From a virus: a stretch of DNA of 64,000 nt. Of the stretch, positions 2,997-59,790 are shown piece after piece. The number at the start of each line of letters is the position of its first letter. Positions within the stretch are counted from its first letter, which is position 1. Under the pieces are notes generated by a model that worked only from the letters and a program-made list of their open reading frames with translations, was not told the origin of the DNA and searched no databases. A program made the position numbers and the translations under genes. The DNA is taken from the IMG/VR virus record IMGVR_UViG_3300045988_129927. One strand, written 5' to 3'.

Positions 2997-3017
2997 TATA
3001 ATAGTATATATTTAAAA
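2997..3017 (-). promoter_or_regulatory. promoter-like motif, same class
   Basis: Minus strand reads ttttaaatatatactattata. Leader hairpin 2970-2997 follows. Confidence 0.5.
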
Positions 3018-4344: not shown

Positions 4345-5856
4345 CTAAACCACACTCTTAAATAGTACACCAAATAAACCTGCGATAAACATATGGTCAT
4401 TTTTAGATAGAGTACTCATGGAGAAATAATCACTATCCTGTGTATTATATAAGTTTTTCAAACCAGTATAGTTTCTAGGATTTGTCTCCTTAATATAAGA
4501 TAAATATCCATTGGTTAGACTACCTGGATTAACTCTGATATTAAACCTACTATAAATCCATTCATTAAATTCTTTAAAAATAGTAGCAAAAAAGAAATCC
4601 TTAACCCACATATTTTCTTTAGTAGTCGGTTGACCATTAAATGCTTCTAGTTTACAAACAATACCAGCATAGTCTCTAAATTCATTTGTATCAATATAAG
4701 ATTTATTTAGATGTTTTGTAAACTGGAGTTGAATATCAGAACCTACAGCTAAACCATTATTAATACCTGCTACATTTTTCATGGTAAATCTTTTACCAGG
4801 TTCTCTATTAGTTTCTTTTAAGAAACGGATAAAAGCAGAACCAATATGTAATTGCAAGATAATAGATTTAAATCCATGATATTTACCATCGTCGCAATAG
4901 AATACACGATAACCAATGATGTCATCTTCACCAACAATAGCAGCACCACGTTTCCAGATATTATTTACCCAAAAACCATCTAAAGTATAATCGTATACAG
5001 ATGTTTTAATAGCAGGGTCTTTAACAAAGTTAACAACCTTAGTCGTAATCGCTGGGATATATTGTTCTTCAATATCGATGTCTTGAATTAAGAAAGGTTT
5101 ATTATTAAATGGTTCAATATTGTTCTTAAGATTAAGCATTTTAATAAAGAACTCTTTTACGGATTCATTACCTGTAAAACGACCATCTAAAGAATAAGCT
5201 CTTTCAATCCTAAAACCACTATTGTCTTGATATTCATTAGAAGGAAAGTGCCAGTTAAATGTCCAACCACCGAAGAATGAACCAATCAATTGATTTTTAG
5301 CTTTAGGAAAGAAGTAACGGGATACGTAGATTTGTGTAGGGATACTGTTAATAGAAACCATTTCTCTAACATTAAACCCATATTGTTTACTTCCGTAGTA
5401 ACAAGGGGAAGCTAGAGAAGGAAATACAGTCATAGAGCGGAAGTCTTCAGATACTTCTACACGAAAAGGAAACCTATCTTCTTGAGAAAACTTAGGATGT
5501 CTATTTATCTTTTCTGCTAACTTTTCATTCATTGCAGTACGATTAGTAAAGTCTACTAATCCTTCTGTTCGCTCATCATGTTCTAATCTAAACGATGTAT
5601 CACCTGGAAAACCAAGAGGAACACGATTATAGTTACTCTCAGCATAAGCATTTTTTTCACGTAAATGTGTAGGTGAGTTTGGTAAGATATGTAAATGTAA
5701 TTCTGTATTATAACTTTTACCATTAATGGTCTTATCACGTGCTAAACAAGAATATCCTTCAATGTCATTCTTAACAGTTTGTGGGATATTAGCTTGTTCT
5801 AAAAGATACATTAGATTATCTGTTTGTGATTTTTCTGGATCGACTAATATAGTCAT
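4345..5856 (-). CDS. hypothetical protein (503 aa)
   Basis: Long ORF. AAAAGGAGTATTTTA precedes the ATG. No motif recognised. Confidence 0.75.
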   Translation of the reverse strand: MTILVDPEKSQTDNLMYLLEQANIPQTVKNDIEGYSCLARDKTINGKSYNTELHLHILPNSPTHLREKNAYAESNYNRVPLGFPGDTSFRLEHDERTEGLVDFTNRTAMNEKLAEKINRHPKFSQEDRFPFRVEVSEDFRSMTVFPSLASPCYYGSKQYGFNVREMVSINSIPTQIYVSRYFFPKAKNQLIGSFFGGWTFNWHFPSNEYQDNSGFRIERAYSLDGRFTGNESVKEFFIKMLNLKNNIEPFNNKPFLIQDIDIEEQYIPAITTKVVNFVKDPAIKTSVYDYTLDGFWVNNIWKRGAAIVGEDDIIGYRVFYCDDGKYHGFKSIILQLHIGSAFIRFLKETNREPGKRFTMKNVAGINNGLAVGSDIQLQFTKHLNKSYIDTNEFRDYAGIVCKLEAFNGQPTTKENMWVKDFFFATIFKEFNEWIYSRFNIRVNPGSLTNGYLSYIKETNPRNYTGLKNLYNTQDSDYFSMSTLSKNDHMFIAGLFGVLFKSVV

Positions 5857-5873
5857 TAAAATACTCCTTTTAA

Positions 5874-5908
5874 ATCAAAAAAAAAGAGAAGTAATCCTTC
5901 TCTTTTTT
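5874..5908. terminator. bidirectional hairpin terminator
   Basis: Stem aaagagaag / cttctcttt, flanked by an A-run and a T-run. Confidence 0.6.
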
Positions 5909-5916
5909 GTATTGTA

Positions 5917-6105
5917 TTAGTTGCACTCTTCCGATGAAGGTGCTTTCATACAATAATCAGCAAGGTCTTCAATTTGACGCATCTTAGCGTCAGCTTTAGC
6001 CTCAGCTGTTTGACGTGCACCCATAGTGACATCGCTGTCACTAGGGGATACTACGTATACAGTCAACGCAGCAATAGCTGCTACCAAGATATAACGGATT
6101 TTCAT
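5917..6105 (-). CDS. small exported or membrane-anchored protein (62 aa)
   Basis: N-terminal hydrophobic segment MKIRYILVAAIAALTVYVV. AAGGAAGAATC RBS. Followed by the bidirectional terminator 5874-5908. Confidence 0.5.
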   Translation of the reverse strand: MKIRYILVAAIAALTVYVVSPSDSDVTMGARQTAEAKADAKMRQIEDLADYCMKAPSSEECN

Positions 6106-6118
6106 GATTCTTCCTTTC

Positions 6119-6358
6119 TTAAAATTTAGTGGCTGCTAAGATTTTGATTTCTGTCTCTACAAAATGTAGGTCAATACCTATATCTGTGTATTGTTTGTAG
6201 AGGTCGAGAGTGAACTCTCGATCCATCAAATTCTTAGCCATTGATTCCAACTTAGCAGCGGCTGCTTTTCGTTCAGCCATTTGTTGCTCCCAATAGGTAT
6301 CAAACTCTGCTAGTTTTTCCTGCAGTTCGGTTCGGGTTTGTTCATAAGTTTTTTCCAT
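6119..6358 (-). CDS. small coiled-coil protein (79 aa)
   Basis: ORF with strong TTAAGGAGACTACT-ATG initiation region, related to the 64-bp leader at 39080 and 54943. Locally higher G+C. Confidence 0.55.
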   Translation of the reverse strand: MEKTYEQTRTELQEKLAEFDTYWEQQMAERKAAAAKLESMAKNLMDREFTLDLYKQYTDIGIDLHFVETEIKILAATKF

Positions 6359-6482
6359 AGTAGTCTCCTTAAGTTGTTGGAATTGTTTTGTGTAGATAGA
6401 TTAGTAAGAATCTATTACGGTGCATTGAGGAACATAGCTGCACTAGGCTACTTAACCGTTACTTACTTAACGTTTGTTTCCA

Positions 6483-6827
6483 TCACTTAACAGTGTAGAT
6501 ACTGAAGCTAAATGTGGCTTCAGCGATTTCGCTGTCAGTGTATTCGTGACGGTCAGTGAGTCGTGGTAAACCACGTACACCCATTACGATTACACTATCA
6601 CCACTGTTAACCACAACACGTGGTGGTGTTGTTGGGATTTCAACATGAATGGAGAATTTCTTCTCCATTGCACTGATGGTAGCTACGTGTGATGGGTTCA
6701 GGCATGGAGTGACACCACGATTGATGAGTTCTTTCACTTCATCGATTGTCAAGGTTTTGCGAGTAATCTCGCAGTCACCATTAAACATGCTATCAGCTAA
6801 AGCAAATCCGAAAAATGTTGTAGACAT
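6483..6827 (-). CDS. DUF1874-family protein, candidate AcrIII-1-type ring nuclease (114 aa)
   Basis: Full-length by-eye match to the DUF1874 pattern (SIRV1 gp29, STIV B116, YddF, all from memory). FALADSMF matches NAFSINML. NPSHVAT matches IGHDST, which holds the catalytic His. VVVNSGDSVIVMGVRGLPRL matches IKLEKEDKLYVVQISQRL. FSFSIY matches VQFFEI. Confidence 0.5.
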   Translation of the reverse strand: MSTTFFGFALADSMFNGDCEITRKTLTIDEVKELINRGVTPCLNPSHVATISAMEKKFSIHVEIPTTPPRVVVNSGDSVIVMGVRGLPRLTDRHEYTDSEIAEATFSFSIYTVK

Positions 6828-6892
6828 AATCTTTCCTTTCTATAAATGTAAAATAAGTTAACGAGAAGAAATAATTTTCTTCTCTTTTCACC

Positions 6893-6913
6893 TTGATAGT
6901 ATGTATTTGAAAA
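6893..6913 (-). promoter_or_regulatory. promoter-like motif, same class
   Basis: Minus strand reads ttttcaaatacatactatcaa. It lies upstream of the DUF1874 gene. Confidence 0.5.
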
Positions 6914-6933: not shown

Positions 6934-7251
6934 TTAGATATTTTCAATAGCCAATTCGATATCTGCAATCTGTTTTCTAACAATAGCTAATTGTTTAAAT
7001 AACTTAACACGCAATTGAGTTAACTCATTAACTTTTGAAGTAAACGATTCATTATCTCCAGATTGTGAACCTCTAAATTGTGAACCTAATGGTACACTAA
7101 ATGGTGGTTTAGTAGCATACAGTACACGCAACTCGTTACTAACTTCCTCATTTGATTTAATGAGTTTAGACTTCACTTCTTGTAAAGAAGCTAAGTCTTC
7201 TTTCAGCATTTTCTTTTGTTGCTCTAAGAATGATTGCATAGTCATTTCCAT
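6934..7251 (-). CDS. small coiled-coil protein (105 aa)
   Basis: ORF with TATATAAAGGAATCTTAAA leader. Heptad-like, Lys/Glu/Leu-rich sequence. Confidence 0.6.
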   Translation of the reverse strand: MEMTMQSFLEQQKKMLKEDLASLQEVKSKLIKSNEEVSNELRVLYATKPPFSVPLGSQFRGSQSGDNESFTSKVNELTQLRVKLFKQLAIVRKQIADIELAIENI

Positions 7252-7307
7252 TTTAAGATTCCTTTATATAAAATATTAAAAAATAGAGAAGTTCTCTTCT
7301 CTTTCAA

Positions 7308-7329
7308 TTTAGTAATATAGACTTGAAAT
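7308..7329 (-). promoter_or_regulatory. promoter-like motif, same class
   Basis: Minus strand reads atttcaagtctatattactaaa. It lies between terminator 7342-7380 and the ATG at 7251. Confidence 0.5.
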
Positions 7330-7392: not shown

Positions 7393-8916
7393 TTATTCTA
7401 CAATTTCAGTGTAACCAGCTAAAGAAGGTACCAAGTCGATACTGTTTACTTCAGTCTCTTCACTTGGAAGTGCGTCTTCATCAATATTTGGTTGACCATC
7501 AAAACCACTTAAGTCTTTCTCTACTGTAGTTTCCTTAATATCGTATTCTACTACGATAGCAAATTCACCAGTAATAAATGGTTTAGCTTCATCTTTAACA
7601 GTAACTAAAACAGTAGCAGAACTATTGTCGTAAGTGTTACTACCTTGATTAATGCTACCAAATTCTAAATAGCTACCTAACCCTAAAGTGTCTTTAAAGT
7701 AAGTAACCAATTCATTTAGTTTTTCTTCTGCATTTTCTTCACTCTTAACTTCACTGTGTTCAGCAATCAAAGCCAATGTACCACTAGCATTTGCTAGAGC
7801 ACCAGTAGAGAATGAAAATTCAGCATTAACAGAAGCAGGTTTATAATCAATGAATTCTTTAGGATAACTAGAAATATCAGATTGAATCGCATAGAAGTCA
7901 CGACTACCGATTACTTTATTGGTTAAAGTAGCTGGGATTTCCACAGTAGGTAATTTAACCAATTTCAAGTTATTTTCAGTAATCAGTTGACGTTCTTCCT
8001 CAGTAAATGCTTTTTCTAAATCATTAGTATCAGCTAATGTAGCTTGACCAAATAACTCAGTAGCACCTAAACCACTGCTTTCCAGATAAGTCTTACGTGC
8101 ATCAAATGCTTCAGTATAATAACCATTTTCAAAGAAACGATTTTTTACTTGGTCTAAGTTAAACGTCATGTTATAAACAAGTAAGTTTGAAGCACCATTA
8201 TAACTTACATCTTTTAAGAATTTAAAGCGCAATACTTCTACTTTAAATACTTTAGATAAATCAAGCTGACGCATGACTTTAATGTCTGATTTCAAAGAAG
8301 AGAAACCATGTGTTACAGAAGGTACAACATTAATGGTAGAGACTTCACCATATTTTACTGTACCTGTTTCTTCTGGACGATACAAGATTTCTGTACTACC
8401 AGAAGATTCTGGGTCTTGATACAGATTATTTTTACTCAAGAGGCTAGCAACAGCAACATCGAATTTACCAGAGGTAGTAAGTGCTGAAATATCTAGGTTA
8501 TCTTCTGGGATATAAGAAACTTCTGTACCTAGAATACCATGCACTAAGTCTAGTTTAGTATAACGGTGTGTTAACACTACCCATTCTTTGTCAGCAGGTA
8601 CTGATAATGCGCTTACTTCTTCAAAAGAAAGTAAACCATTATTGTATTTACGTACATAAATCTTACCAGTATTGTGTGGGTCTACAGTATTACTTTCTGT
8701 TTTAACGACATTGTGGTCAGTCGTATTAATACGTGCTGCTACGTCTTTTAAAAAAGCAATATGGACAGCAGCATTGTATTTCTCTTCAGAAATTTCAGAG
8801 AGTGTAAAATACACATTCTCTTGATTCAATACTGCATTGGTGTAGCCTGCATCAATCAGCAAACTATTAAAGTTATTTGCTGTAGTAGCATTTAGATTAT
8901 ACTTGATATTAGGCAT
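7393..8916 (-). CDS. paralog-array protein 1 of 5 (507 aa), probable virion or fibre-associated
   Basis: The N-terminus MPNIKYNLNATTANNFNSLLIDAGYTNAVLNQENVYFT and the C-terminus GEFAIVVEYD..VEKDLSGFDG are shared with the ORFs at 8936, 10576, 12164 and 15228. Confidence 0.8.
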   Translation of the reverse strand: MPNIKYNLNATTANNFNSLLIDAGYTNAVLNQENVYFTLSEISEEKYNAAVHIAFLKDVAARINTTDHNVVKTESNTVDPHNTGKIYVRKYNNGLLSFEEVSALSVPADKEWVVLTHRYTKLDLVHGILGTEVSYIPEDNLDISALTTSGKFDVAVASLLSKNNLYQDPESSGSTEILYRPEETGTVKYGEVSTINVVPSVTHGFSSLKSDIKVMRQLDLSKVFKVEVLRFKFLKDVSYNGASNLLVYNMTFNLDQVKNRFFENGYYTEAFDARKTYLESSGLGATELFGQATLADTNDLEKAFTEEERQLITENNLKLVKLPTVEIPATLTNKVIGSRDFYAIQSDISSYPKEFIDYKPASVNAEFSFSTGALANASGTLALIAEHSEVKSEENAEEKLNELVTYFKDTLGLGSYLEFGSINQGSNTYDNSSATVLVTVKDEAKPFITGEFAIVVEYDIKETTVEKDLSGFDGQPNIDEDALPSEETEVNSIDLVPSLAGYTEIVE

Positions 8917-8935: not shown

Positions 8936-10489
8936 TTAAACTTCTTTAGGAGTAACTTGAGCACGAATGTAGAATTTGTTTACTACATAATCCTCTAAAC
9001 CTGGTTTAGGAGTTACAACCAATACATATTCATTTTCAGAAGTGTGTTCATCACTCTTAGCTACAGCTGTGTAACCATCAATATAAAGAGTTCTAAACAT
9101 AGTGTAAATGTCTTCAGCTGCTTTTTTAGCTTTTTCAATAGTATCGATAGATTCGTGTGTAATGTTAAAACCACGAGTGTTTTCTTCAGGTACTTCGTAT
9201 ACAGTAATGGTTTGGTTATTGTATACGTCTTTACTAAATGTAGAGAAGTCTACACCAGCAAGACGAGATGCTATAGCAGTATTCCATGGATTGTAACCAA
9301 ATCGATCACCAGTTTCTACTAAGCAATCATCTTTATATTCATTTGGGAATTCAGCCAAGTTAGCGGTAGCAATCCAAACAGTACCTTTGTTAATAAAGTA
9401 ATCGACTTCTTCTTTAGTTTTAATCGTAACCACTTTACCAGGGATAGGTTTAGCATAAGCCGAACTATTACGATTACGTTTAACTACGCCGTCTTTATAG
9501 AATGCAGGTAATTCTAACAAATCAGGTACTTCAGTTACTTCAGAAGTATCTAAATTAGCACGTTTAATAAACTCACCTTGACCACGAATATCACCAGTAT
9601 AAGTAAATGCCAAGACAACATCCATCACGTTATTACCAGTAGGTGTTACACGAATACGGTTACCAATAAGAGGTCTAAATTCAATATCATTATTACCTAC
9701 TTTACGATAAGTACGGTTACGTATAAACCAGAAATGATAAGCTTTAAGGTCAGTCTTAGGAATCTTAGCTAAGTCACCAATAACTTTAACAGTAATGTCT
9801 TGTGGACGAACAATTAATTCGTTATCGTTTTTAGGAGTCAAACGAATGGTGTTGTTACCATATTTAAATGGGCCAGCAACACCAAAGTCTTCTAAGTAAT
9901 ATTGTTTCAAACGGTCAGAATCTTTAGAAAATAAAGTATTCAGTGTAGCAACAGGATTAACATTAAATGATAATACATTATTGTTCTCTACTTCAGAAAC
10001 ATTAATGGCATAATCTTTACTCTCTGTTTCTGCTACATGGTTAACCAAGGATACACGACGATATTGGTGTTTGTAAATAGAGAACTTATGGGTATGGTCA
10101 GCAGGATAGAATTTCACACGTTGGTATTCTACACCAGCGGCAGATTTAACACGTTTATAAGTATAAACATAACGCTTTTCTGTTTCAGCTTCAGTCAATA
10201 CTTCTAGGTTACCACCATCACCGATAACAGATTCTGGGAATGGATAAATAGAGGTATCAAATGGTACATCACCATGATTGATTTCTACACCATAAGGATT
10301 ATTCAGGGCAACAAACAATACTGTATTGTTATCACCTTCGAAGACAGGTTTTTTCTTTTCATTGAAATAAGGAGTGACGTATAAATCAAATTTATTTAAA
10401 GCGTCTTCTTTATAGCCACCAGATTTCAATAGTCTTTCAAAATTTTCAGTCACGCTTTTACTTAAGCGGTAAGACAATTTTTTACTCAT
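8936..10489 (-). CDS. paralog-array protein 2 of 5 (517 aa)
   Basis: N-terminus MSKKLSYRLSKSVTENFERLLKSGGYKEDALNKFDLYVT fits the family pattern. The central region is divergent. Confidence 0.75.
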   Translation of the reverse strand: MSKKLSYRLSKSVTENFERLLKSGGYKEDALNKFDLYVTPYFNEKKKPVFEGDNNTVLFVALNNPYGVEINHGDVPFDTSIYPFPESVIGDGGNLEVLTEAETEKRYVYTYKRVKSAAGVEYQRVKFYPADHTHKFSIYKHQYRRVSLVNHVAETESKDYAINVSEVENNNVLSFNVNPVATLNTLFSKDSDRLKQYYLEDFGVAGPFKYGNNTIRLTPKNDNELIVRPQDITVKVIGDLAKIPKTDLKAYHFWFIRNRTYRKVGNNDIEFRPLIGNRIRVTPTGNNVMDVVLAFTYTGDIRGQGEFIKRANLDTSEVTEVPDLLELPAFYKDGVVKRNRNSSAYAKPIPGKVVTIKTKEEVDYFINKGTVWIATANLAEFPNEYKDDCLVETGDRFGYNPWNTAIASRLAGVDFSTFSKDVYNNQTITVYEVPEENTRGFNITHESIDTIEKAKKAAEDIYTMFRTLYIDGYTAVAKSDEHTSENEYVLVVTPKPGLEDYVVNKFYIRAQVTPKEV

Positions 10490-10575: not shown

Positions 10576-12141
10576 TTATACTTCATCGACACCGCGACGT
10601 TCGTGCTCGTATCCTTCATAACCATTGAGGTCTTTCTCTACAGTAATATCAGTAGGAACAGGATATTCGATTACCAGAGCAAATTCACCAGTAAAGATAG
10701 GTTCAAATTCAGGTTTAACACGTACTACACGAGTGAAAGAAGAAGTATCGTATACGTATTGGTCAGATTCTACTTCTTTAGTAGCTGACAAGTCAGTCAA
10801 ATCTAAAGGTTTCAAATTCAATTGACCCAACAGAGTACCGAATACTTGTTGCATTTTAACTTTAGCTTCATCGATAGATTTCACTTCAGGTGCATCCAGA
10901 ATCAAGGCTTTAACACCATTGGTCAGTACACCTTGGGTGAAAGTCAAACCACTTAACAAGTTAGCAGTTTGTTCAGTTACACCTGCTTGAGTCAAGTTGT
11001 CTTTATTGTCGATGAATTCTTTAGGGTATTCACCAATGTCTACTTGTTCTACGAAGACATTGAATTTACCTTTGAATTTCTCTTGCAATTCTACAGCTAA
11101 TTCTTTACCTTTGTATTGCAATACTTTTACTTTTTCGTCAGTTAAAGTTTGAATAGATTCATCGGTAAAGTATTTTTCCAATACTTCATCATCAGCAACT
11201 ACAGGGTTAACTTCCAATAAAGTAGCAGCATCCAGTAAGTTATCTTTCAAGAACTGACCACGTTTTTCTTGGAATGCACGTTCAACGGCTTTACCCAAGA
11301 TGTAGTCTTTACTGAAGTTCTCACCACCAATAGACAAGTTTTCAGTAACAATAGTGTTACCTTTTACTTTCAACTCTTTATTGTCTTTAACACTCAGAGA
11401 ACGGTGTTTACCTTTAATGAATTTAGGACGCAACAATACAGCTTGAGATTGAGCACCCAAGTCCAATACCAGTTTGGTTTTAACTTTAGAACCCAAAGAA
11501 GAAACTTTATGGTAAGCAGTAGGAGTCAATTCGGTAGTACTAGATACACCGTATTCTAAATCACCATCGCTATTGAATTGATAGTACTCACGTGGAGAAC
11601 CATTTACATCATCAGCATGGAGTTTCCATTTAGCCAAGAAACCATCAATGTTTGCTTTTTTAGACAGAGTAGAAACACCGCCTACACGCAATACTTCTTC
11701 AGTATCAGAAACATCAATAGTGTGCTCTTCCTTACCAGTTACTGCTTTCAATAAGTCTAAACGATTGTAGCGGTGGGTAACGATAACATAATCGCCACCA
11801 GTCAATTCATCAGCAGTGAATTGTTTTTCTTCAAAGTAAACAGAACCATCATTAGCTACTTTACGGGCAATGACTTTATTGTCGGTTACTTTTTCAGCAT
11901 TGAATGGAGTAGTAGAAGCAGTGTGTACGACTTCGTTAGTAGTGAAGTCAATTTTATCTGCTACAGATTTACGCAGAATTACATCTACAGAACTGTTAAA
12001 CTCAGCATCACCTGGAGTTTCAGATACTGTAAAATAAACGTTTTCTTGATTTAAGATGGCTTTAGTGTAGCCAGCGTCAATCAAAAGATTTTCAAAGTTA
12101 ACACCGGATTTTACACCGATAGTATATTTAATATTTGCCAT
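10576..12141 (-). CDS. paralog-array protein 3 of 5 (521 aa)
   Basis: MANIKYTIGVKSGVNFENLLIDAGYTKAILNQENVYFT and GEFALVIEYP..VEKDLNGYEG are the closest match to copy 1. Confidence 0.8.
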   Translation of the reverse strand: MANIKYTIGVKSGVNFENLLIDAGYTKAILNQENVYFTVSETPGDAEFNSSVDVILRKSVADKIDFTTNEVVHTASTTPFNAEKVTDNKVIARKVANDGSVYFEEKQFTADELTGGDYVIVTHRYNRLDLLKAVTGKEEHTIDVSDTEEVLRVGGVSTLSKKANIDGFLAKWKLHADDVNGSPREYYQFNSDGDLEYGVSSTTELTPTAYHKVSSLGSKVKTKLVLDLGAQSQAVLLRPKFIKGKHRSLSVKDNKELKVKGNTIVTENLSIGGENFSKDYILGKAVERAFQEKRGQFLKDNLLDAATLLEVNPVVADDEVLEKYFTDESIQTLTDEKVKVLQYKGKELAVELQEKFKGKFNVFVEQVDIGEYPKEFIDNKDNLTQAGVTEQTANLLSGLTFTQGVLTNGVKALILDAPEVKSIDEAKVKMQQVFGTLLGQLNLKPLDLTDLSATKEVESDQYVYDTSSFTRVVRVKPEFEPIFTGEFALVIEYPVPTDITVEKDLNGYEGYEHERRGVDEV

Positions 12142-12163: not shown

Positions 12164-13771
12164 TTATTCTTCGATACCAGTGAATCCGCTTAATTCTTTA
12201 TTTAAGACAGATTCATCATTGTATTCAACAGTAATATTGAATACACCTTCTAACAATGTATCAGTATTTTCAACAGGAACATACTGTTTAGTGAGAGAAG
12301 AAACATCGTAAGTATTGGTTGTTTCTCTTTCTTCCAAATAGAAAGAGACGTTATATTCAGCGTGTAATACATTCATTAAGTCTTGTAATACTTGGCTGGT
12401 ATTTTCTTTGGTAATTAATTCACCTTTAACCAAAAGTGTTTTACTACCGTCATTTAGATTACCCAATGAGAATTTCAATTGAGCAAATTTTTCTTTATAT
12501 GTTTCATCTCTATCAGTCAGTGTAGACTGAATAGTACTGGCTAGTGTACTTAATTCTACAGTAGCTAATTCATCAGCTAATTCACCAAGATTACGGGAAA
12601 TATTTCTTACTGTTAATCTACCTGAGAATAAATCGTAGAAGTTTTCTTTAATCTTAGCTAATTCTTCACCTTCTAGATATACACTGTATTCTTTATGGTT
12701 TGTGGTACCTTCTAAAACAAGACCTTTAAAACCATAAGTGTATATATCGTATCCCAGTTTTGTTTTAGGGGTTACTTCGTCGGTGATATTAACCAATAAT
12801 TCTTGAAAGAAGAAGTCTTTACGTTTACCAGAGTAGTAAGTTTTAATGACGTCTCTAAATAAACCTTTATTGGATAATCTGGATTTAGGTTTATGGAATA
12901 CTACAACAGGATTCTGTGTAACTGAACCAGATTCCAATTCAACAGATACTTCTGTTTTAACAAATTCTTTCAAAGAAGATTGATTAAAGTCTTTTACAAA
13001 CTTAATTGCGTTGTATTGTAAAACATTATCAACTAAGTTCAAGTCCATAGCAGCATGGATATGCAATGATTCAGGTAACGCAAAGAAGCGATGAACGCCT
13101 TTTGGTGTAATCTGAATCTCGCTACCACCTAGTACTGGTGTAAAAGCTTCGTAGGAATAATACTTATCTAAGTTAGTAGCAGGGTCAGTTTGTTGTTCTG
13201 CTTCTTTATCAGGAAATACCAAATGTGTATCATTCTCGTATGTTACCTGACCTTCTTGAACAACCTGTACTTCTCGTACATAACCGTAAATAGTAGGTGT
13301 ATTTGGTTTACGGTTAGCTACCTTTCTAGCTACTTCAATTAATTTTTGACGAGTAAATTCGTGCTCAATAATAGTAAACTCTTTAACGATGTCTTCTTTA
13401 GAAAACTTAAATGGAACATAATCCACGCTGTCGCCAGAATTTACACGTTTGTATACATCGTATACTTGTTTAAATGTGGCATTATCCAAATGCGATTGAA
13501 ATTCAGCGACATCAATGTATTTAGCACCATTAGGTAGAGGTACATCGTTACTATATGTTTTTACTTTAGACTTATCAATCTTAGAAGCAACGTCTTTGGA
13601 AAAAGCAATAAAGAGTTTAGCATTATTGCCTTCCAAAGTATTGTCTTCTAATAACTGAATATAAACATCATCTTCATTCAGGATTTTTTTAGTATATCCT
13701 GCATTCAGTAAAAGTGCTTCGATGTTTATACCAGCAGACTGATGTACATTATACGGAGTCTTATTAGACAT
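12164..13771 (-). CDS. paralog-array protein 4 of 5 (535 aa)
   Basis: Carries NIEALLLNAGYTKKILNEDDVYIQL near the N-terminus and GVFNITVEYN..LNKELSGFTG near the C-terminus. Confidence 0.8.
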   Translation of the reverse strand: MSNKTPYNVHQSAGINIEALLLNAGYTKKILNEDDVYIQLLEDNTLEGNNAKLFIAFSKDVASKIDKSKVKTYSNDVPLPNGAKYIDVAEFQSHLDNATFKQVYDVYKRVNSGDSVDYVPFKFSKEDIVKEFTIIEHEFTRQKLIEVARKVANRKPNTPTIYGYVREVQVVQEGQVTYENDTHLVFPDKEAEQQTDPATNLDKYYSYEAFTPVLGGSEIQITPKGVHRFFALPESLHIHAAMDLNLVDNVLQYNAIKFVKDFNQSSLKEFVKTEVSVELESGSVTQNPVVVFHKPKSRLSNKGLFRDVIKTYYSGKRKDFFFQELLVNITDEVTPKTKLGYDIYTYGFKGLVLEGTTNHKEYSVYLEGEELAKIKENFYDLFSGRLTVRNISRNLGELADELATVELSTLASTIQSTLTDRDETYKEKFAQLKFSLGNLNDGSKTLLVKGELITKENTSQVLQDLMNVLHAEYNVSFYLEERETTNTYDVSSLTKQYVPVENTDTLLEGVFNITVEYNDESVLNKELSGFTGIEE

Positions 13772-15227: not shown

Positions 15228-16751
15228 TTATTGTTGTCCATTCCTACCATGACGGTAAGCATCGATTAAGTTAGCAGCACTTACTTCAGTAACGCGTGGT
15301 TTAACAGGAGCTGGACGCTCGTGTACTGTTTCAGTTTCTTCAGTTACTGCGGGAGCTACAGGAGCTACGGGTGTAGCAGGAGTAGCTGGTTTTTCATAGT
15401 GAGCTACGCCAGAAAAACCACCTAAATTACGTTTAACGACAACAGTCTCTTTTTCAGGTTTATGCTCACAACCACAGTTATCTTCATCACCATTAATTTG
15501 GAGAGTATAGTTAACAATGGCTTTAACATCACCAGAAACATAATCAGAGATTTTATCGTTAGGAGTAACAGAAAGAATCAAGCGATTGGCTTCAGAAGTC
15601 TCTAAACCAATATCTACAAATACAGAATAATCACCTAAGAATTTACGAATAATTTTCTCAGCTTTTTGTTCTGCATTAGTAACAGAAGTCTCTTTACCTA
15701 ATGTGATTTCAAACTCTACAAAGTTTTTATTAGTTTTAGAGAATACGAAACTACGCACCTTATCTTCTTTAAAGCGATAGGCTTGTTCTTCTTCTACTGG
15801 GAATAAGTTAGAATCCAGTAAAAGTTTAGACAAGTAACCACGAGCTACCATCAAGCGAATATTACCTACTACAGCAGATGTTTCATCTTCTTGTTGTTCT
15901 TTAGACAAAGTATACAAGTAAGAGTATGCGTAGTTAGCGGAAGCTTTCTTCTCAATAGATTGTTCTTCATTTGCAGGAGCACGCAGTTCTTGTTTGAAGT
16001 TAGGATTACGAACGATGTCGATGACTTCATCGTCGATTTCTTTTAAGATGGCTTTACTGCGAATCATGCCATATGCTTCACGCAAATAGCGGTCTAGAAT
16101 ACGACGTTCAGTTTCTTGAACAGTAACGGCAGGTGGAACCACCATCTCAATATAGCAGTCTTTTTTATTCATTTGTACAGTATTGACAAATGGGTTTACT
16201 ACTGCTACAATCTTAGCTTGTTTGTGACCTAAATCGACAAAGTATTGTACTTTTTGATAAGCTACACCAGTCAAACCATAGCTACGTGGAGAAGGACGTA
16301 CTTCTACTAAGTTACGACCATAACGTAAACCACCAGCTGTACCTTGTACATCAAATGACAGGTTTTCACCTAAGAATGGAAAGCCATCATTAGTCCAAAC
16401 ATTTTTAATGTATTGGTCAATACTGATGTTTTCCATTTCAGAATCACGCACGTACATGATTTTGTTTTGCCATTTATCTGGAATAGGCTTCACACGGTCG
16501 TAGAAGTGGACGTTAGAAGTCTTTTTGGTTAGCTTAGCCAATTCACCAGAGTAACTTACTTTCAAAGCAGTGTTACCTACTTTGTCTTGGTATACATCAA
16601 ACTCTGGATTAGATGAATCTTTTACTGATTCAATCGTTACATCATCCAGTAATTCTTCTGGAATACCAGCGGCTTCCAAAATACGATTGATGTTATCAAT
16701 ACCCGTAACTCGTGGGTCGTAAGGCATTAGCTTATTTGCATTGTCTACCAT
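15228..16751 (-). CDS. paralog-array protein 5 of 5, divergent (507 aa)
   Basis: NINRILEAAGIPEELLDDVTIESV and VVVKRNLGGFSG fit the family N- and C-terminal patterns. Adds a PATPATPVAPVAPAV linker and a basic tail. Confidence 0.7.
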   Translation of the reverse strand: MVDNANKLMPYDPRVTGIDNINRILEAAGIPEELLDDVTIESVKDSSNPEFDVYQDKVGNTALKVSYSGELAKLTKKTSNVHFYDRVKPIPDKWQNKIMYVRDSEMENISIDQYIKNVWTNDGFPFLGENLSFDVQGTAGGLRYGRNLVEVRPSPRSYGLTGVAYQKVQYFVDLGHKQAKIVAVVNPFVNTVQMNKKDCYIEMVVPPAVTVQETERRILDRYLREAYGMIRSKAILKEIDDEVIDIVRNPNFKQELRAPANEEQSIEKKASANYAYSYLYTLSKEQQEDETSAVVGNIRLMVARGYLSKLLLDSNLFPVEEEQAYRFKEDKVRSFVFSKTNKNFVEFEITLGKETSVTNAEQKAEKIIRKFLGDYSVFVDIGLETSEANRLILSVTPNDKISDYVSGDVKAIVNYTLQINGDEDNCGCEHKPEKETVVVKRNLGGFSGVAHYEKPATPATPVAPVAPAVTEETETVHERPAPVKPRVTEVSAANLIDAYRHGRNGQQ

Positions 16752-17385: not shown

Positions 17386-18414
17386 TTAACCTTCTAGTGA
17401 AAAAGAAATCGCTGGATGCGACTGATATCCCACTACTTTAAACCATTCAATATCAATATCACCACTCAATAATTTATCACGAGTGAGTTGTTGAGACAAG
17501 TATAGTTTAGGTGCTGGGAATGGAGTGCGACTTAGCTGTTCTTTAATGTTTTGGATGTGTGGTAAATAGATGTGTGCATCATGTACCATGTGGGTGTGTT
17601 CACCAGGATGACAATTAAGAACGTGTGCTAAGATAAAGTTCATACAAGCGTATTGTGCAATATTGTGTGGTTTACCAATAGCCACATCATTAGAGCGCAT
17701 GGTTAGAGAAGTCATGAGTTTATATTTAGGTAAAGGACGATTATCTACTTCACCAAATTGCTTGGCTTGGTTCTCACGATAATTGATGACTTCTTCTAAT
17801 TCGGTGTCGGATATTGGACGTAGAGAAACAAAGAATTCTCGGTGACAAGTATCGAGAGCCATGTGTCCCATCTTAACATTGGTAATAGGGTCTAGTTTCT
17901 CAAATGGGCGCATACCTAAGTTAACATTTGAGATATAGTGACGACGTGAGATAACATCGTATTGAATATCACGTGCTAAACCTACTACTAAGTCTTTTAA
18001 TTGGTCGATGGTCTTACAACTCACCATATGGTTATCTGCTTTATCAGAACCTACTTCGACATTGACATTGGTTACTGAAAGCTTGCGCCAAATTTCAGGA
18101 TACATAGGGCCGATGGTCTTAAATGGTTTCTTGTCAATTTGGATATTACGCTCAGTAGTCCATTTTGTCCAGAAGGGTACTTTGTTTTCTTCTAGATAAG
18201 TAATATCACTGGTACCCTTAATAAACCAAATCAATTCATGTAATGTTTTAGTAAAATTAATCTTACGAGTAGTGACTAGTGGGAATGAACCATCTAAAAG
18301 TGGATACTTTTCCATAACACCAATAACAGAACGCATACCTGAACCACTACGGTCTGTCAAAATAGTTTCACCATATTGTAAAATTTCACGAATGGTATTC
18401 AAATGTTGTTGCAT
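17386..18414 (-). CDS. thyA: thymidylate synthase (ThyA) family enzyme with insertions (342 aa)
   Basis: By-eye match to E. coli ThyA motifs. DRSGSGMRS matches DRTGTGT. FPLVTTRK matches FPLVTTK. LHELIWF is present. SRRHYISNVN supplies the RR pair. LDTCH supplies the catalytic Cys. MRSNDVAIGKPHNIAQY matches QRSCDVFLGLPFNIASY. HDAHIY matches GDTHLY. Confidence 0.8.
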   Translation of the reverse strand: MQQHLNTIREILQYGETILTDRSGSGMRSVIGVMEKYPLLDGSFPLVTTRKINFTKTLHELIWFIKGTSDITYLEENKVPFWTKWTTERNIQIDKKPFKTIGPMYPEIWRKLSVTNVNVEVGSDKADNHMVSCKTIDQLKDLVVGLARDIQYDVISRRHYISNVNLGMRPFEKLDPITNVKMGHMALDTCHREFFVSLRPISDTELEEVINYRENQAKQFGEVDNRPLPKYKLMTSLTMRSNDVAIGKPHNIAQYACMNFILAHVLNCHPGEHTHMVHDAHIYLPHIQNIKEQLSRTPFPAPKLYLSQQLTRDKLLSGDIDIEWFKVVGYQSHPAISFSLEG

Positions 18415-23562: not shown

Positions 23563-25050
23563 TTATTTACCTAACAAACCAGAAGCTTCAGATTCCTTAG
23601 AGTAGTCTCGGTTGATGCTATCTTCTACCGAGAATTTTTCAGGATAACGAGCTTTCAGTTTTTTGAATACTTTATCAGCAACAGTTTCCATATCCATATC
23701 GTGATAAAATGCCAATGAAGTTAACACAGTAAGAATTCTCTCAACTGTGTTCAAGAAATTGCTAAGCAACACACTTGTTAAAGGTTGACCGTAGAAGTAG
23801 TGTTTCTTATAATCATCGATTACAGAAGCAATACGAGACAATTCACTTTGGAATATTCCCATAAAGAAATCATCTTGATTAACATCTTTATCAATATGTA
23901 AAGAATAAGTAGTATTCAGTTTACAAGACGTGATATAGCTAACAATCTTGCTGCCACAGATATTGATACCTAATCTTTCCGCAATATTATCTTCAGAAGA
24001 AATAATCTTTTCAGTAATTACACGGTCAAGGTCATATAGTGCAATACCACAGTACCAAAGAGTATCACCTACTTCAGACAACATACATTGAACTTGCTCA
24101 TCTGTTAATGGTTTTTTCTCAAAGATAGCTCGTTTGGTTTCAACATCAAAAACTTCATTGAGTTCACCCAAGATACCTACCATGTCATGGAAGAGTGCTT
24201 TGCTGATGTCTGCATTATAGGTAGCATTAGTACGATTTGCTAACTGCATGAATTCATACCAACCCATACCACTAACATCTACTTTGCTAACCATACCATG
24301 CAATTCAGAAGCCAGTGTTTCTGGTTCTTCATTAGCTACATCGATAATCACGAATTTAGGTTTACCAATAACCAACCAGAAGAAAGAACTATAGTGTTTT
24401 TGATATTTCTCATGACTAGCCATAGACTCTTTGTCGAATGTTTTATCGTACTCTTCACCATTTAGTTTCTCTTTTGGAAGATTAAATGGTGTTTCACGAG
24501 TAACATTAACAAATACATCTACCATATTTTTAAGACATTTTACGTGACGGTGTTCTCTGTTTACAACTAATGTTTCAAGATTACTCACATTATTGTAAGA
24601 ATAACCGTAAATCAAAGAAGAAATAATAGTACGGTCTACCAACAAGTAAATATCTTTATTGGTTTTAATATTGTTCAAGAGCATACGTACTACGTGCAAT
24701 TGTTCAATCTTACCTTCGCAAATAAGTTGAACATTTGCTTCTCTGATATATTCAGATGTTGCATTTTCAATTACAATACCAGTATTGGTTTTTTTACCCA
24801 ATACAAGATCAATACCATGAGCAGTATGTTCACGAGCTTTTTGATAACGAGCTTGATATGGTGTCAGATAGTCTTTATCTACACCTTCAAATGAGAAGAT
24901 GTCGTATTCTTTACCATAAGTAGATTCGTCACCTGTAGGTTTATGGATAAATACCAAGTTACCTTCATTCTGAAGTTTCTTAGCATAAGCTTTAATCAAA
25001 GTAGTTTTACCTACGTTAGAGCTACCTTCAAATGCGATTACTTTAATCAT
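23563..25050 (-). CDS. dNMP (thymidylate-type) kinase fused to MazG-like NTP pyrophosphohydrolase (495 aa)
   Basis: N-terminal P-loop IAFEGSSNVGKTT and DRTIISSLIYG match Tmk IEGLEGAGKTT and DRY..S..AYQ. The C-terminal half carries ILGELNEVFD...EVGDTLWYCGIAL, the MazG E..E / E..D..W pattern, plus a second helical repeat. Confidence 0.65.
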   Translation of the reverse strand: MIKVIAFEGSSNVGKTTLIKAYAKKLQNEGNLVFIHKPTGDESTYGKEYDIFSFEGVDKDYLTPYQARYQKAREHTAHGIDLVLGKKTNTGIVIENATSEYIREANVQLICEGKIEQLHVVRMLLNNIKTNKDIYLLVDRTIISSLIYGYSYNNVSNLETLVVNREHRHVKCLKNMVDVFVNVTRETPFNLPKEKLNGEEYDKTFDKESMASHEKYQKHYSSFFWLVIGKPKFVIIDVANEEPETLASELHGMVSKVDVSGMGWYEFMQLANRTNATYNADISKALFHDMVGILGELNEVFDVETKRAIFEKKPLTDEQVQCMLSEVGDTLWYCGIALYDLDRVITEKIISSEDNIAERLGINICGSKIVSYITSCKLNTTYSLHIDKDVNQDDFFMGIFQSELSRIASVIDDYKKHYFYGQPLTSVLLSNFLNTVERILTVLTSLAFYHDMDMETVADKVFKKLKARYPEKFSVEDSINRDYSKESEASGLLGK

Positions 25051-55006: not shown

Positions 55007-55027
55007 TTTTAATAGTATATATCTGAA
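55007..55027 (-). promoter_or_regulatory. promoter-like motif, same class
   Basis: Minus strand reads ttcagatatatactattaaaa. It abuts element copy C and is followed by the 64-bp shared leader. Confidence 0.5.
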
Positions 55028-59771: not shown

Positions 59772-59790
59772 ATTAATAGTATATATCAGA
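59772..59790 (-). promoter_or_regulatory. promoter-like motif, same class
   Basis: Minus strand reads tctgatatatactattaat. It lies upstream of the RNAP beta-prime-like gene. Confidence 0.45.

What the first reader, a model, noticed from the sequence alone, without database searches (positions are those of the whole stretch)
6483..6827. DUF1874-like small protein: candidate AcrIII-1-type viral ring nuclease in a jumbo phage
The 114-aa ORF matches, along its whole length and by eye, the DUF1874 fold family as I remember it (SIRV1 gp29 = AcrIII-1, STIV B116, B. subtilis YddF).
- The N-terminal strand FALADSMF matches NAFSINML.
- NPSHVAT aligns with IGHDST, which contains the catalytic His of AcrIII-1.
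- VVVNSGDSVIVMGVRGLPRL matches IKLEKEDKLYVVQISQRL.
- The C-terminal FSFSIY matches VQFFEI.

AcrIII-1 proteins degrade cyclic tetra-adenylate and so switch off type III CRISPR signalling. phiKZ-like phages are known to escape DNA-targeting CRISPR and restriction but to stay exposed to RNA-guided type III and type VI systems. A cOA-degrading enzyme is therefore exactly the counter-defence such a phage would need.

The gene has its own promoter-like motif (6893-6913). It heads a small GC-richer three-gene unit with the ORFs at 6119-6358 and 5917-6105, ending at terminator 5874-5908.
Basis: partly seen in the sequence, partly recalled or inferred. Interest (0 to 1): 0.8.

Follow-up and report, generated by a model that had tools for sequence, protein, structure and literature searches.

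The report
Divergent ring-nuclease-fold gene in jumbo phage
A small gene in a roughly 240-kb phiKZ-like phage encodes a protein with the same fold and catalytic histidine as the viral enzyme AcrIII-1, which destroys a CRISPR alarm molecule, but it belongs to a distinct, unannotated and very conserved branch with a remodelled binding pocket, so its exact target is still unknown.

Summary
ORF 6483-6827 (-) is a real 114-aa gene with more than 1,100 homologs and dN/dS of 0.08-0.14. Its AlphaFold model (pLDDT 93) matches only DUF1874 proteins in the PDB: B116, AFV3-109, SIRV1 gp29/AcrIII-1 and Csx1-Crn2 (TM about 0.7, E about 1e-5; the next fold has E above 1). It pairs the invariant His47, Thr50 and the lid Arg-Leu-x-Asp/Glu.

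The protein is not a standard family member. Pfam PF08960 does not detect it. Four cA4-contact side chains are replaced (N8F, S11A, S49A, Q81G). The lid loop is a different invariant sequence, MGVRGLPRLTDRHEY.

The clade is sporadic and linked to mobile elements. It occurs in two unrelated phiKZ-like jumbo phages, other phages, a conjugative element and mostly CPR bacteria, and it never sits beside type III CRISPR genes.

In the window it heads a horizontally acquired GC-rich cassette. An early-promoter-type motif lies upstream and a terminator lies downstream.

The best reading is a cyclic-oligonucleotide phosphodiesterase used as counter-defence. The substrate may be cA4 or something else and is unproven. 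This is a new variant of a known kind, of moderate to high interest.

The parts
6483..6827 (-). 114-aa gene for a divergent DUF1874-fold (AcrIII-1/Crn2-like) protein. Key features are the catalytic-type His47 in the C-x-NPSH-x-A-T motif and an invariant lid loop, MGVRGLPRLTDRHEY, at residues 82-96.
   Evidence: ORF. Homologs and invariant columns. AF2 model with pLDDT 93. Foldseek top 17 PDB hits are all DUF1874 proteins. hhalign 92% probability, E 6e-7. dN/dS 0.08-0.14.
6893..6911 (-). AT-rich promoter-type motif TTCAAATACATACTATCAA with core ATACATACTAT, 66-84 nt upstream of the ATG. It is probably a phage early (virion-RNAP) promoter.
   Evidence: The core has 4 exact copies against 0.27 expected, all upstream of minus-strand genes. 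The same motif-hairpin-RBS layout is seen at five sites and in L010 and L077. [quoted passage not shown] The assignment as an early promoter is inferred.
6863..6884 (-). 9-bp hairpin GAGAAGAAA-loop-TTTCTTCTC between the promoter-type motif and the ribosome-binding site. It is either a 5' leader stem-loop or a weak terminator of the upstream gene.
   Evidence: Sequence. The pattern GAGAAG..CTTCTC occurs only 3 times in 64 kb, all at this locus, against 0.02 expected.
6119..6358 (-). 79-aa ORF, helical or coiled-coil-like, second gene of the GC-rich cassette. Function unknown. It is replaced by a diverged 121-aa ORF in the sister contig L010.
   Evidence: no family. (not homologous to downstream genes elsewhere). 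(39% identity over 49 aa in L010; 100% in L077).
5917..6105 (-). 62-aa ORF with an N-terminal hydrophobic segment (MKIRYILVAAIAALTVYVV) and a Cys-containing tail, third gene of the cassette. Function unknown.
   Evidence: Conserved 90-100% in L010 and L077.
5880..5908 (-). Intrinsic-terminator-like hairpin (12-bp stem AAAAAAGAGAAG/CTTCTCTTTTTT followed by a T-run) that closes the three-gene unit.
   Evidence: It has the same GAGAAG/CTTCTC stem family as the other two local hairpins.
5850..6900 (.). Compositional island: 37-43% GC and GC3 of 35-38%, against 28-35% GC and GC3 of 20-24% in the flanks. This indicates horizontal acquisition of the cassette.

Best explanation
The gene encodes a divergent member of the DUF1874 fold superfamily, which includes AcrIII-1, Crn2 and B116.

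**Proposed mechanism, by analogy with AcrIII-1.**
- Two subunits form a pocket at the dimer interface that binds a cyclic oligonucleotide.
- The invariant Arg/His-rich loop (residues 85-96, equivalent to the mobile lid 82-94 of AcrIII-1) closes over the ligand.
- Arg89 (equivalent to Arg85) locks the lid.
- His47, at the N-terminus of helix 45-58, acts as general acid in metal-independent cleavage to linear products with a 2',3'-cyclic phosphate.

**Proposed role.**
- In this phiKZ-like jumbo phage the gene was acquired horizontally.
- It is probably transcribed early from a virion-RNAP-type promoter.
- It removes a host immune second messenger. That messenger is most probably a cyclic oligoadenylate of type III CRISPR, possibly of a ring size other than cA4, or a related signal.

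**Shown:** gene reality, fold, homology, conservation of His47, Thr50, Arg89 and Asp92, the compositional island, the recurrent promoter motif, and a distribution linked to mobile elements.

**Inferred:** dimerisation, ligand identity, catalysis, early timing and the anti-defence role.
For: **Fold.**
- The AF2 model has pLDDT 93 and pTM 0.85.
- The top 17 PDB Foldseek hits are all DUF1874 proteins: 2j85, 8y7f/8y7g, 2j6b, 2x4i and 6scf. E-values run from 6e-6 to 4e-4 and TM from 0.65 to 0.72. The next fold has E>1.
- The top viral predicted-structure hits are DUF1874-like phage and archaeal-virus proteins, including STIV B116.

**Homology.**
- hhalign against a canonical profile gives 92% probability and E 6e-7.
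- 36 of 58 relatives hit PF08960 weakly.
- The only PDB sequence hit is AFV3-109, with the His aligned.

**Active site.**
- His47, Thr50, Arg89 (=R85), Leu90, Asp92 (=E88), His94 (=K90) and Glu100 (=E96) are invariant in the clade.
- They align with residues that are invariant in canonical proteins. Among these are H47, the general acid, whose H47A mutant loses more than 2,500-fold activity, and R85, which locks the lid.
- The secondary structure places His47 at a helix N-terminus. It places the invariant loop before helix 98-103, as in AcrIII-1.

**Selection and mobility.**
- dN/dS is 0.08-0.14.
- The gene is kept in all 7 contigs of the lineage.
- A 63%-identical copy sits at a different position in a second, unrelated phiKZ-like phage.
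- Copies occur in other phages and inside a conjugative element.

**Timing.** The upstream motif fits the AT-rich early-promoter class of about 10 nt described for RNAP-encoding jumbo phages.
Against: - No PF08960 hit for the window protein.
- Several published cA4 contacts are lost: N8->F, S11->A, S49->A, Q81->G and N65->P. The lid has a 2-residue insertion and a different invariant sequence.
- There is no association with type III CRISPR, CARF or cyclase genes in 138 cellular and metagenomic loci. The only recurrent neighbour is a TrmBL2-type HTH regulator.
- Most carriers are CPR bacteria. To my knowledge (not tested here), type III systems are rare in these organisms.
- The host of the phage is unknown.
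- A canonical family member was reported not to work as an Acr in its native infection and to bind a host methyltransferase instead.
- The 65-75% identity across very distant carriers is unusual for a small-molecule hydrolase and is not explained.
Confidence: 0.5

Rival explanations
1. The protein has the same fold and chemistry but a different substrate. It would be a phosphodiesterase for a nucleotide other than cA4: another cOA ring size (cA6 or cA3), a CBASS, Pycsar or Thoeris-type signal, or a non-immune oligonucleotide or RNA end. This overlaps with the best explanation except for ligand identity.
For: - The pocket is remodelled. N8F, S11A, S49A and Q81G replace cA4 contacts.
- The clade has new invariant polar residues: D12, R23, C42, N44, S46, D77, R85, R93, H94, E95 and Y96.
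- The lid is more basic and 2 residues longer.
- There is no co-location with type III loci.
- All known stand-alone ring nucleases are cA4-specific, and cA6 effectors lack a known partner ring nuclease. An unfilled niche therefore exists.
Against: The catalytic His, Thr50, the lid Arg and the acidic residue are kept in register with AcrIII-1. No positive evidence points to any particular alternative ligand.
Confidence: 0.25
2. The gene is a cellular (CPR) accessory gene with a non-defence role, for example nucleotide or RNA turnover under a TrmBL2-type regulator. Phages picked it up as an auxiliary gene and it is unrelated to CRISPR.
For: - 58 of 67 genome loci are Patescibacteria.
- Neighbours are housekeeping genes (RNase Y, ClpP, trigger factor, NusA, KhpA). 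A TrmBL2-like regulator is present in 28 of 67 loci and directly adjacent in 12.
- There are no CRISPR arrays or cas genes nearby.
Against: - The distribution is sporadic: 67 of 185,579 species genomes.
- The gene is present in unrelated phages and in a conjugative element.
- It lies in a compositional island in the phage.
- The very high identity across distant lineages fits horizontal spread better than vertical housekeeping inheritance.
Confidence: 0.12
3. The protein has a non-catalytic role. It would act as a nucleotide sponge or as a protein-binding inhibitor of a host factor, as reported for SIRV2 gp37 and the lysine methyltransferase SiL_1451.
For: There is a published precedent within the fold family. 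Very strong surface-wide conservation (61% mean column identity with many invariant positions) could reflect a conserved macromolecular partner.
Against: The invariant residues coincide with the catalytic His and the ligand lid of AcrIII-1, not with a separate surface. A conserved protein partner shared by jumbo-phage hosts and CPR bacteria is hard to name.
Confidence: 0.1

Closest known systems
AcrIII-1 (SIRV1 gp29; PDB 2X4I, 6SCF) and the viral DUF1874 proteins STIV B116 (2J85) and AFV3-109 (2J6B)
   Same: - About 110-aa single-domain protein with the same fold (TM 0.65-0.72).
- His47 and Thr50 are at identical positions.
- The lid keeps the pattern R-L-x-(D/E)-x-(K/H)-x-x-(T/S)-x-x-E.
- The N-terminal strand motif x-A-(F/L)-x-x-x-M is kept.
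- It is carried by viruses.
   Different: - Only 13-18% sequence identity.
- Below the Pfam PF08960 threshold.
- cA4 contacts N8, S11, S49, Q81 and N65 are replaced.
- G46->S, G89->R, a 2-residue insertion in the lid, and many clade-specific invariant residues.
- Far more conserved within its own clade (65-75% identity) than canonical members are with each other.
Crn2 (cellular DUF1874, e.g. Marinitoga Csx1-Crn2, PDB 8Y7F/8Y7G)
   Same: Fold (TM 0.65-0.72, E about 1e-5) and a catalytic His.
   Different: Crn2 is defined by its location in, or fusion to, type III CRISPR effectors. The present clade shows neither in 138 loci. The longer family members carry no recognisable CARF or HEPN domain.
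B. subtilis YddF (DUF1874 in the conjugative element ICEBs1)
   Same: A bacterial DUF1874-type gene carried within conjugation machinery. The present clade also occurs between DUF3854 and PrgI/TraC/VirB4-like genes. YddF was assayed for cOA cleavage in the AcrIII-1 study.
   Different: YddF is a canonical PF08960 member and the present clade is not. The position of YddF within ICEBs1 is from my own knowledge and was not checked here.
Csx16 (a cA4 ring nuclease reported to resemble 2J6B structurally)
   Different: No Pfam Csx16 signal in the clade. Csx16 is CRISPR-linked and described as CARF-like.

Membership tests
DUF1874 / STIV_B116-like (Pfam PF08960) | Match to the PF08960 profile at or above the gathering score (26 bits) | tested here: not met
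   The window protein has no hit at E<=10. 36 of 58 relatives hit only weakly, with a best E of 2.9e-4. The best score seen is 24 bits, for P0175.
DUF1874 / AcrIII-1 / Crn2 fold superfamily | The DUF1874 fold: beta-strands 4-7 and 21-26, helices 28-37 and 45-58, strand 78-85, a loop, helix 98-103, and a C-terminal strand | tested here: met
   The AF2 model has pLDDT 93. The Foldseek top 17 PDB hits are all DUF1874 proteins, with TM 0.65-0.72 and probability 1.00. The next fold has E>1.
DUF1874 / AcrIII-1 / Crn2 fold superfamily | Detectable sequence homology to canonical members | tested here: met
   hhalign of A1 against A2 gives 92% probability and E 6e-7 over 99 columns. The profile search of PDB sequences finds only AFV3-109, at E 0.089.
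AcrIII-1 / Crn2 ring nucleases | Absolutely conserved catalytic His (H47 of SIRV1 gp29) in the H-x-x-T motif | tested here: met
   His47 and Thr50 are invariant in 58 of 58 sequences. They align to H47 and T50. The role of H47 is described.
AcrIII-1 / Crn2 ring nucleases | Mobile lid loop with the locking Arg (R85) and a conserved acidic residue (E88) | tested here: met
   R89, L90 and D92 are invariant and align to R85, L86 and E88. However, the loop carries a 2-residue insertion and a different invariant sequence.
AcrIII-1 / Crn2 ring nucleases | Conservation of the cA4-contacting side chains N8, S11, N13, S49, T50, R66 and Q81 | tested here: not met
   T50 is kept and R66 is mostly kept (as R70). 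N13 becomes S. The replacements are N8->F, S11->A, S49->A and Q81->G, three of them at positions invariant in the clade.
AcrIII-1 / Crn2 ring nucleases | Homodimer with the ligand pocket at the interface | not testable with these tools
   Only monomer prediction was available and no model coordinates were returned.
AcrIII-1 / Crn2 ring nucleases | Cleavage of cA4 to A2>P / A2-P | not testable with these tools
   This requires biochemistry.
[quoted passage not shown] | Location in, or fusion to, type III CRISPR-Cas loci or effectors | tested here: not met
   There are no CRISPR arrays. No Cas10, Csm or Cmr models appear among the PADLOC families listed for 417 neighbours (one search shows only 25 of 73 families, the rest being single-member hits). 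Fused forms have no CARF or HEPN domain. One unresolved Csx16-like neighbour and one weak CARF hit remain.
Anti-CRISPR (AcrIII) in the functional sense | Carried by a mobile element and expressed early enough to pre-empt signalling | tested here: inconclusive
   Carriage by phages and a conjugative element is shown. Early expression is only inferred from a recurrent AT-rich promoter-type motif. The host and its CRISPR content are unknown.
phiKZ-like (chimallivirus-type) jumbo phage, as context | Genome over 200 kb, split multisubunit RNAP subunits, shared core virion genes, and the nuclear shell protein | tested here: inconclusive
   Size is 235-244 kb. Split RNAP beta subunits are present. 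Core virion proteins are shared with PCH45, 201phi2-1 and PhiPA3. Chimallin was not identified in these 64 kb.

The most novel reading that the evidence does not exclude
This is a previously unrecognised clade of DUF1874-fold ring nucleases whose remodelled, more basic pocket gives it a specificity no stand-alone ring nuclease is known to have, for example cA6 or another immune nucleotide. It would spread horizontally as a general anti-signalling gene among nucleus-forming jumbo phages, other phages, conjugative elements and CPR bacteria. It would explain how phiKZ-like phages, which are shielded from DNA-targeting defences, can also blunt RNA-triggered type III CRISPR signalling.
Probability: 0.15. 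Interest if true: 0.8.

Novelty: new variant of a known kind. Interest (0 to 1): 0.6.

Why it matters
From established knowledge (work on Serratia phage PCH45 and Pseudomonas phiKZ), phiKZ-like phages evade DNA-targeting CRISPR and restriction but remain exposed to RNA-sensing type III systems. A cyclic-nucleotide-degrading enzyme would be the obvious missing counter-measure.

This gene is a concrete, easily testable candidate. The protein is 114 aa, the chemistry needs no metal, and there are clear point mutants to make (H47A, R89A, H94A).

The gene also defines a clade that current ring-nuclease surveys cannot see. It falls below the Pfam threshold, it is absent from 50,697 GenBank phages, and I found no paper on it. 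The clade has more than 1,100 metagenomic members. Its remodelled pocket could reveal a new ligand specificity.

Its concentration in CPR bacteria without CRISPR linkage is unexpected. It may point to cyclic-nucleotide biology in those organisms.

Tried and rejected
1. Single-sequence Pfam, PHROGs and PDB searches gave nothing useful. Homology appeared only with profiles and structure.
2. tblastn of the protein against 50,697 GenBank phages found no match.
3. The downstream 79-aa ORF is not a conserved partner. It is not homologous to the downstream genes in other carriers.
4. The recurrent HTH neighbour in CPR loci is not a cyclic-nucleotide sensor. It is a full-length TrmBL2-type regulator (5BPD, E 8e-12) and has no CARF domain.
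5. The PADLOC 'Csx3-AAA' hits among neighbours are artefacts of the AAA domain. The proteins are an IS21 IstB-type ATPase and ComM.
6. A neighbour that weakly matched the canonical AcrIII-1 profile (L156:5929-6240) is KhpA.
7. A crude repeat scan of 76 loci gave only two array-like hits (L045, L051). I dismissed them on apparent repeat spacing without inspecting them further.
8. The fused or longer family members carry no recognisable extra Pfam domain.
9. The sigma-70 promoter scan was not above background (11 sites against 7.5 expected), and no site lies at 6893-6913.
10. A loose version of the promoter core with 1 mismatch is not enriched. Only the exact core is.
11. Rfam and tRNA scans of the locus and window found nothing above threshold.
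12. There is no nucleotide-level evidence of recent transfer. Similarity to other carriers is limited to the coding region, at about 69%.
13. The supplement of the 2025 ring-nuclease survey was not available, so I could not see which phages carry canonical AcrIII-1.
Full report
**1. The observation**

The minus-strand ORF 6483..6827 exists as described. It has an ATG start, encodes 114 aa, and has a strong ribosome-binding site. Three results show that it is a real gene.
- A word-indexed search of about 5.8 billion proteins returned 1,157 relatives, most of them 65-75% identical over the full length.
- An exhaustive profile search of 1.84 billion cluster representatives found 330 clusters.
- Against two contigs of the same phage lineage, substitutions are mostly synonymous, with dN/dS of 0.08 and 0.14.

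An alignment of 58 members shows very strong conservation.
- FGFxxADxMF at the N-terminus is invariant.
- C-x-NPSH-x-A-T around His47 is invariant.
- MGVRGLPRLTDRHEY (residues 82-96) is an unbroken invariant stretch.

**2. Is it DUF1874-like?**

Single-sequence searches say nothing. There is no PF08960 hit at E<=10, no informative PHROG, and no PDB sequence hit. With more sensitive methods the answer is yes.

*Sequence evidence*
- 36 of 58 relatives give sub-threshold PF08960 hits, with a best E of 2.9e-4.
- A profile of the family finds one PDB sequence, AFV3-109, with the histidines aligned.
- I extracted the SIRV1 ORF114 (AcrIII-1) and STIV B116 sequences from their GenBank records. I collected 18 canonical relatives and aligned them.
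- Profile-profile comparison of the two alignments gives 92% probability and E 6e-7.

*Structure evidence*
- The AlphaFold2 model is confident, with pLDDT 93 and pTM 0.85.
- Its 17 best PDB matches are all DUF1874 proteins: B116, Csx1-Crn2, AFV3-109, SIRV1 ORF114a and AcrIII-1 bound to cA4. E-values run from 6e-6 to 4e-4 and TM-scores from 0.65 to 0.72. The next fold scores E>1.
- The viral predicted-structure library gives matching results.

The fourth, the C-terminal strand, lies outside the hhalign alignment but within the Foldseek alignments.

**3. The active site**

The AcrIII-1 paper names the following features.
- His47 is the general acid, and the H47A mutant loses more than 2,500-fold activity.
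- Arg85 sits on a mobile loop (82-94) that locks the closed dimer.
- The side chains R66, N8, Q81, S11, T50, S49 and N13 contact cA4.

On the alignment, the residues retained and invariant in the clade are as follows.

| This clade | AcrIII-1 |
|---|---|
| His47 | His47 |
| Thr50 | Thr50 |
| Arg89 | Arg85 |
| Leu90 | Leu86 |
| Asp92 | Glu88 |
| His94 | Lys90 |
| Glu100 | Glu96 |

Arg70 (=Arg66) is mostly retained. The model places His47 at the N-terminus of helix 45-58. It places the invariant loop just before helix 98-103, as in AcrIII-1.

The differences are also clear.
- N8 becomes Phe, S11 becomes Ala, S49 becomes Ala and Q81 becomes Gly.
- The canonical invariant residues G46, N65 and G89 become Ser, Pro and Arg.
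- The lid has two extra residues.
- The clade has its own invariant polar set: D12, R23, C42, N44, S46, D77, R85, R93, H94, E95 and Y96.

The catalytic apparatus and the lid principle are therefore kept, while the ligand pocket is remodelled. This supports 'works like a ring nuclease'. It leaves the ligand open.

**4. Genomic setting in the window**

The window belongs to a very divergent phiKZ-like jumbo phage.
- Split RNAP beta-type subunits, a DNA polymerase and virion proteins match PHROGs typical of that group. They are about 30% identical to proteins of Burkholderia, Ralstonia, Pseudomonas, Serratia (PCH45) and Erwinia jumbo phages.
- There is no nucleotide similarity to any GenBank phage.
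- Metagenome contigs of the same lineage are 235-244 kb, and all seven carry the gene at 92-99% identity.
- Chimallin was not identified within these 64 kb, so nucleus formation is inferred from relatedness only.

The gene heads a three-ORF unit (6483-6827, 6119-6358, 5917-6105).
- The unit is a compositional island. It has 37-43% GC and GC3 of 35-38%, against GC3 of 20-24% in its neighbours.
- A clear terminator hairpin at 5908-5880 closes it.
- It lies just downstream of an array of four paralogous ORFs of about 510-535 aa.

Its core, ATAYATACTAT, occurs four times exactly against 0.27 expected. Every copy lies in intergenic DNA upstream of a minus-strand gene, and one of those genes is an RNAP subunit gene. 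At five sites the layout is the same: motif, a short spacer, a hairpin, the RBS and then the ATG. This layout is conserved in sister contigs.

A review states that every RNAP-encoding jumbo phage has an AT-rich motif of about 10 nt, centred near -10, that serves as the virion-RNAP early promoter. I therefore infer early expression, which is a prerequisite for an anti-signalling role.

Hairpins with GAGAAG/CTTCTC stems occur only three times in 64 kb, and all three bracket this cassette. Within the lineage the small ORFs on either side of the gene are hypervariable: 51% and 39% identity in L010, against 96-100% for the flanks. The site therefore behaves as an exchange hot spot.

**5. Distribution elsewhere**

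- *Species genomes.* Among 185,579 species genomes the clade occurs in 67 loci. Of these, 58 are Patescibacteria/CPR, chiefly Saccharibacteria. One 'Gemella' MAG contig is this same phage.
- *Neighbours in CPR loci.* They are housekeeping genes. The one recurrent neighbour is a TrmBL2-type HTH regulator, present in 28 of 67 loci and adjacent in 12. It is not a CARF-type sensor.
- *CRISPR and defence genes.* No CRISPR arrays were found. PADLOC scans of 417 neighbouring proteins from 138 loci show no recurrent defence family and no Cas10, Csm or Cmr among the families listed. Apparent Csx3 hits are AAA-domain artefacts. One Csx16-model hit and one weak CARF hit remain unresolved.
- *Viral contigs.* Among 2.9 million viral contigs only 11 carry the clade. 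One is a second, unrelated phiKZ-like jumbo phage of 234 kb, which has a 63%-identical copy at a different genomic position. The other carriers share nothing but this gene with the window.
- *Conjugative element.* One context is a conjugative element, between a DUF3854 gene and T4SS genes. From my own knowledge, this recalls YddF in ICEBs1.

The pattern is sporadic and linked to mobile elements, the gene is highly conserved, and it shows no link to CRISPR loci.

**6. Interpretation**

The best-supported reading (confidence about 0.5) is a dimeric, metal-independent phosphodiesterase for a cyclic oligonucleotide. It would use His47 and an Arg/His-rich lid, and mobile elements would deploy it to erase a host immune signal.

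The case for this reading:
- The fold and catalytic residues are shown.
- Carriage by mobile elements and acquisition by two separate phiKZ-like lineages fit a counter-defence role.
- The logic that such phages are exposed to type III CRISPR is established knowledge.

The points against the specific 'cA4 / AcrIII-1' label:
- the remodelled pocket
- the failed Pfam test
- the lack of any CRISPR linkage
- the CPR bias
- a report that a canonical member is not an Acr in its native infection and instead inhibits a host methyltransferase

The rivals are:
- a different nucleotide substrate (0.25)
- a non-defence cellular function borrowed by phages (0.12)
- a non-catalytic binder or sponge (0.1)

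The unusually high conservation across distant carriers remains unexplained by any of these.

**7. Novelty and verdict**

AcrIII-1/Crn2 is well known, and canonical members were counted in 36 of 28,114 phage genomes. The present clade is invisible to the Pfam model, absent from GenBank phages, and not mentioned in any paper I could find. It is best called a new variant of a known kind.

The homology call was correct, while the specific function remains a good but untested hypothesis. I score interest at 0.6.

Noticed in passing
window 5886-5902, 6863-6884, 7286-7301: Hairpins with the same GAGAAG...CTTCTC stem occur only three times in 64 kb (0.02 expected). All three bracket the small genes of this cassette, and a fourth lies at the equivalent place in L010. 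They could be local terminators or leader structures, or marks of cassette exchange.
   Followed up: partly
window 3001-3011, 6896-6906, 55012-55022, 59776-59786 (all minus strand); variant at 7310-7319: A recurrent AT-rich core, ATAYATACTAT, is followed after a few bases by a hairpin, then the RBS and the ATG. It looks like the phage's own (virion-RNAP, early) promoter. One copy precedes an RNAP beta-type subunit gene (57647-59737).
   Followed up: partly
window 7393-8916, 8936-10489, 10576-12141, 12164-13771 (minus strand): Four tandem ORFs of 507-535 aa are paralogs (21-33% identity) with no PHROG match. The cassette sits immediately downstream of this array. ORFs 4345-5856 and 15228-16751 are of similar size but are not detectably related.
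   Followed up: partly
window 6934-7251 and 6119-6358, compared with L010:36-368 and L010:948-1313: Within the same phage lineage the flanking genes are 96-100% identical. The small ORFs on either side of the DUF1874-like gene are only 51% and 39% identical. The gene itself has dS of 0.47. The site is a local hypervariable or recombination hot spot.
   Followed up: partly
L085 and L140 (contigs of 233-234 kb), gene at 10001-10348: A second phiKZ-like jumbo phage (43% GC) that shares no other gene with the 64-kb window carries a 63%-identical copy. It lies between a virion structural protein gene and the terminase large subunit gene.
   Followed up: partly
L168:7001-7348 and L169:5070-5417: A family member lies inside a conjugative element. 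Upstream are SSB, anaerobic ribonucleotide reductase and DUF3854 genes. Downstream are PrgI-like, TraC-like and VirB4/TraG-like genes.
   Followed up: no
CPR loci, e.g. L015:7535-8320, L046:8862-9674, L172:3519-4313: A TrmBL2-type HTH regulator of about 260 aa lies near the gene in 28 of 67 genome loci. It is directly adjacent in 12, often divergently oriented, which suggests that it regulates the gene in CPR bacteria.
   Followed up: partly
one protein among the +-3 neighbours in loci L095-L167: One neighbour matches PADLOC Csx16 models (E 7e-18; Csx16 is a confirmed cA4 ring nuclease). One neighbour in L041-L076 weakly matches a CARF model (1e-7).
   Followed up: partly
BFVD hits J7KCD4 (Erwinia phage phiEaH2) and A0A1B2IEC3, A0A1B2IEJ3, A0A1B2IEG6 (Erwinia phage vB_EamM_Kwan): Uncharacterised proteins of 133-165 aa from Erwinia phages resemble the model more weakly (TM 0.45-0.63). 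From my own knowledge these are jumbo phages. More diverged DUF1874-like folds may therefore already exist, unannotated and as several paralogs, in phages of this kind.
   Followed up: no
about 28 CPR loci, e.g. L066:5455-5931 and L062:10063-10545 (antisense to the gene): A long antisense ORF of about 158 aa overlaps the family gene in many CPR loci. It is probably a by-product of the conserved coding sequence and GC content. It is absent from the window.
   Followed up: no
window 23563-25050 and 17386-18414 (minus strand): A 495-aa ORF combines thymidylate-kinase-like and MazG-like pyrophosphatase matches. A thymidylate synthase gene lies nearby. Together they form a nucleotide-metabolism module of the phage.
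   Followed up: no
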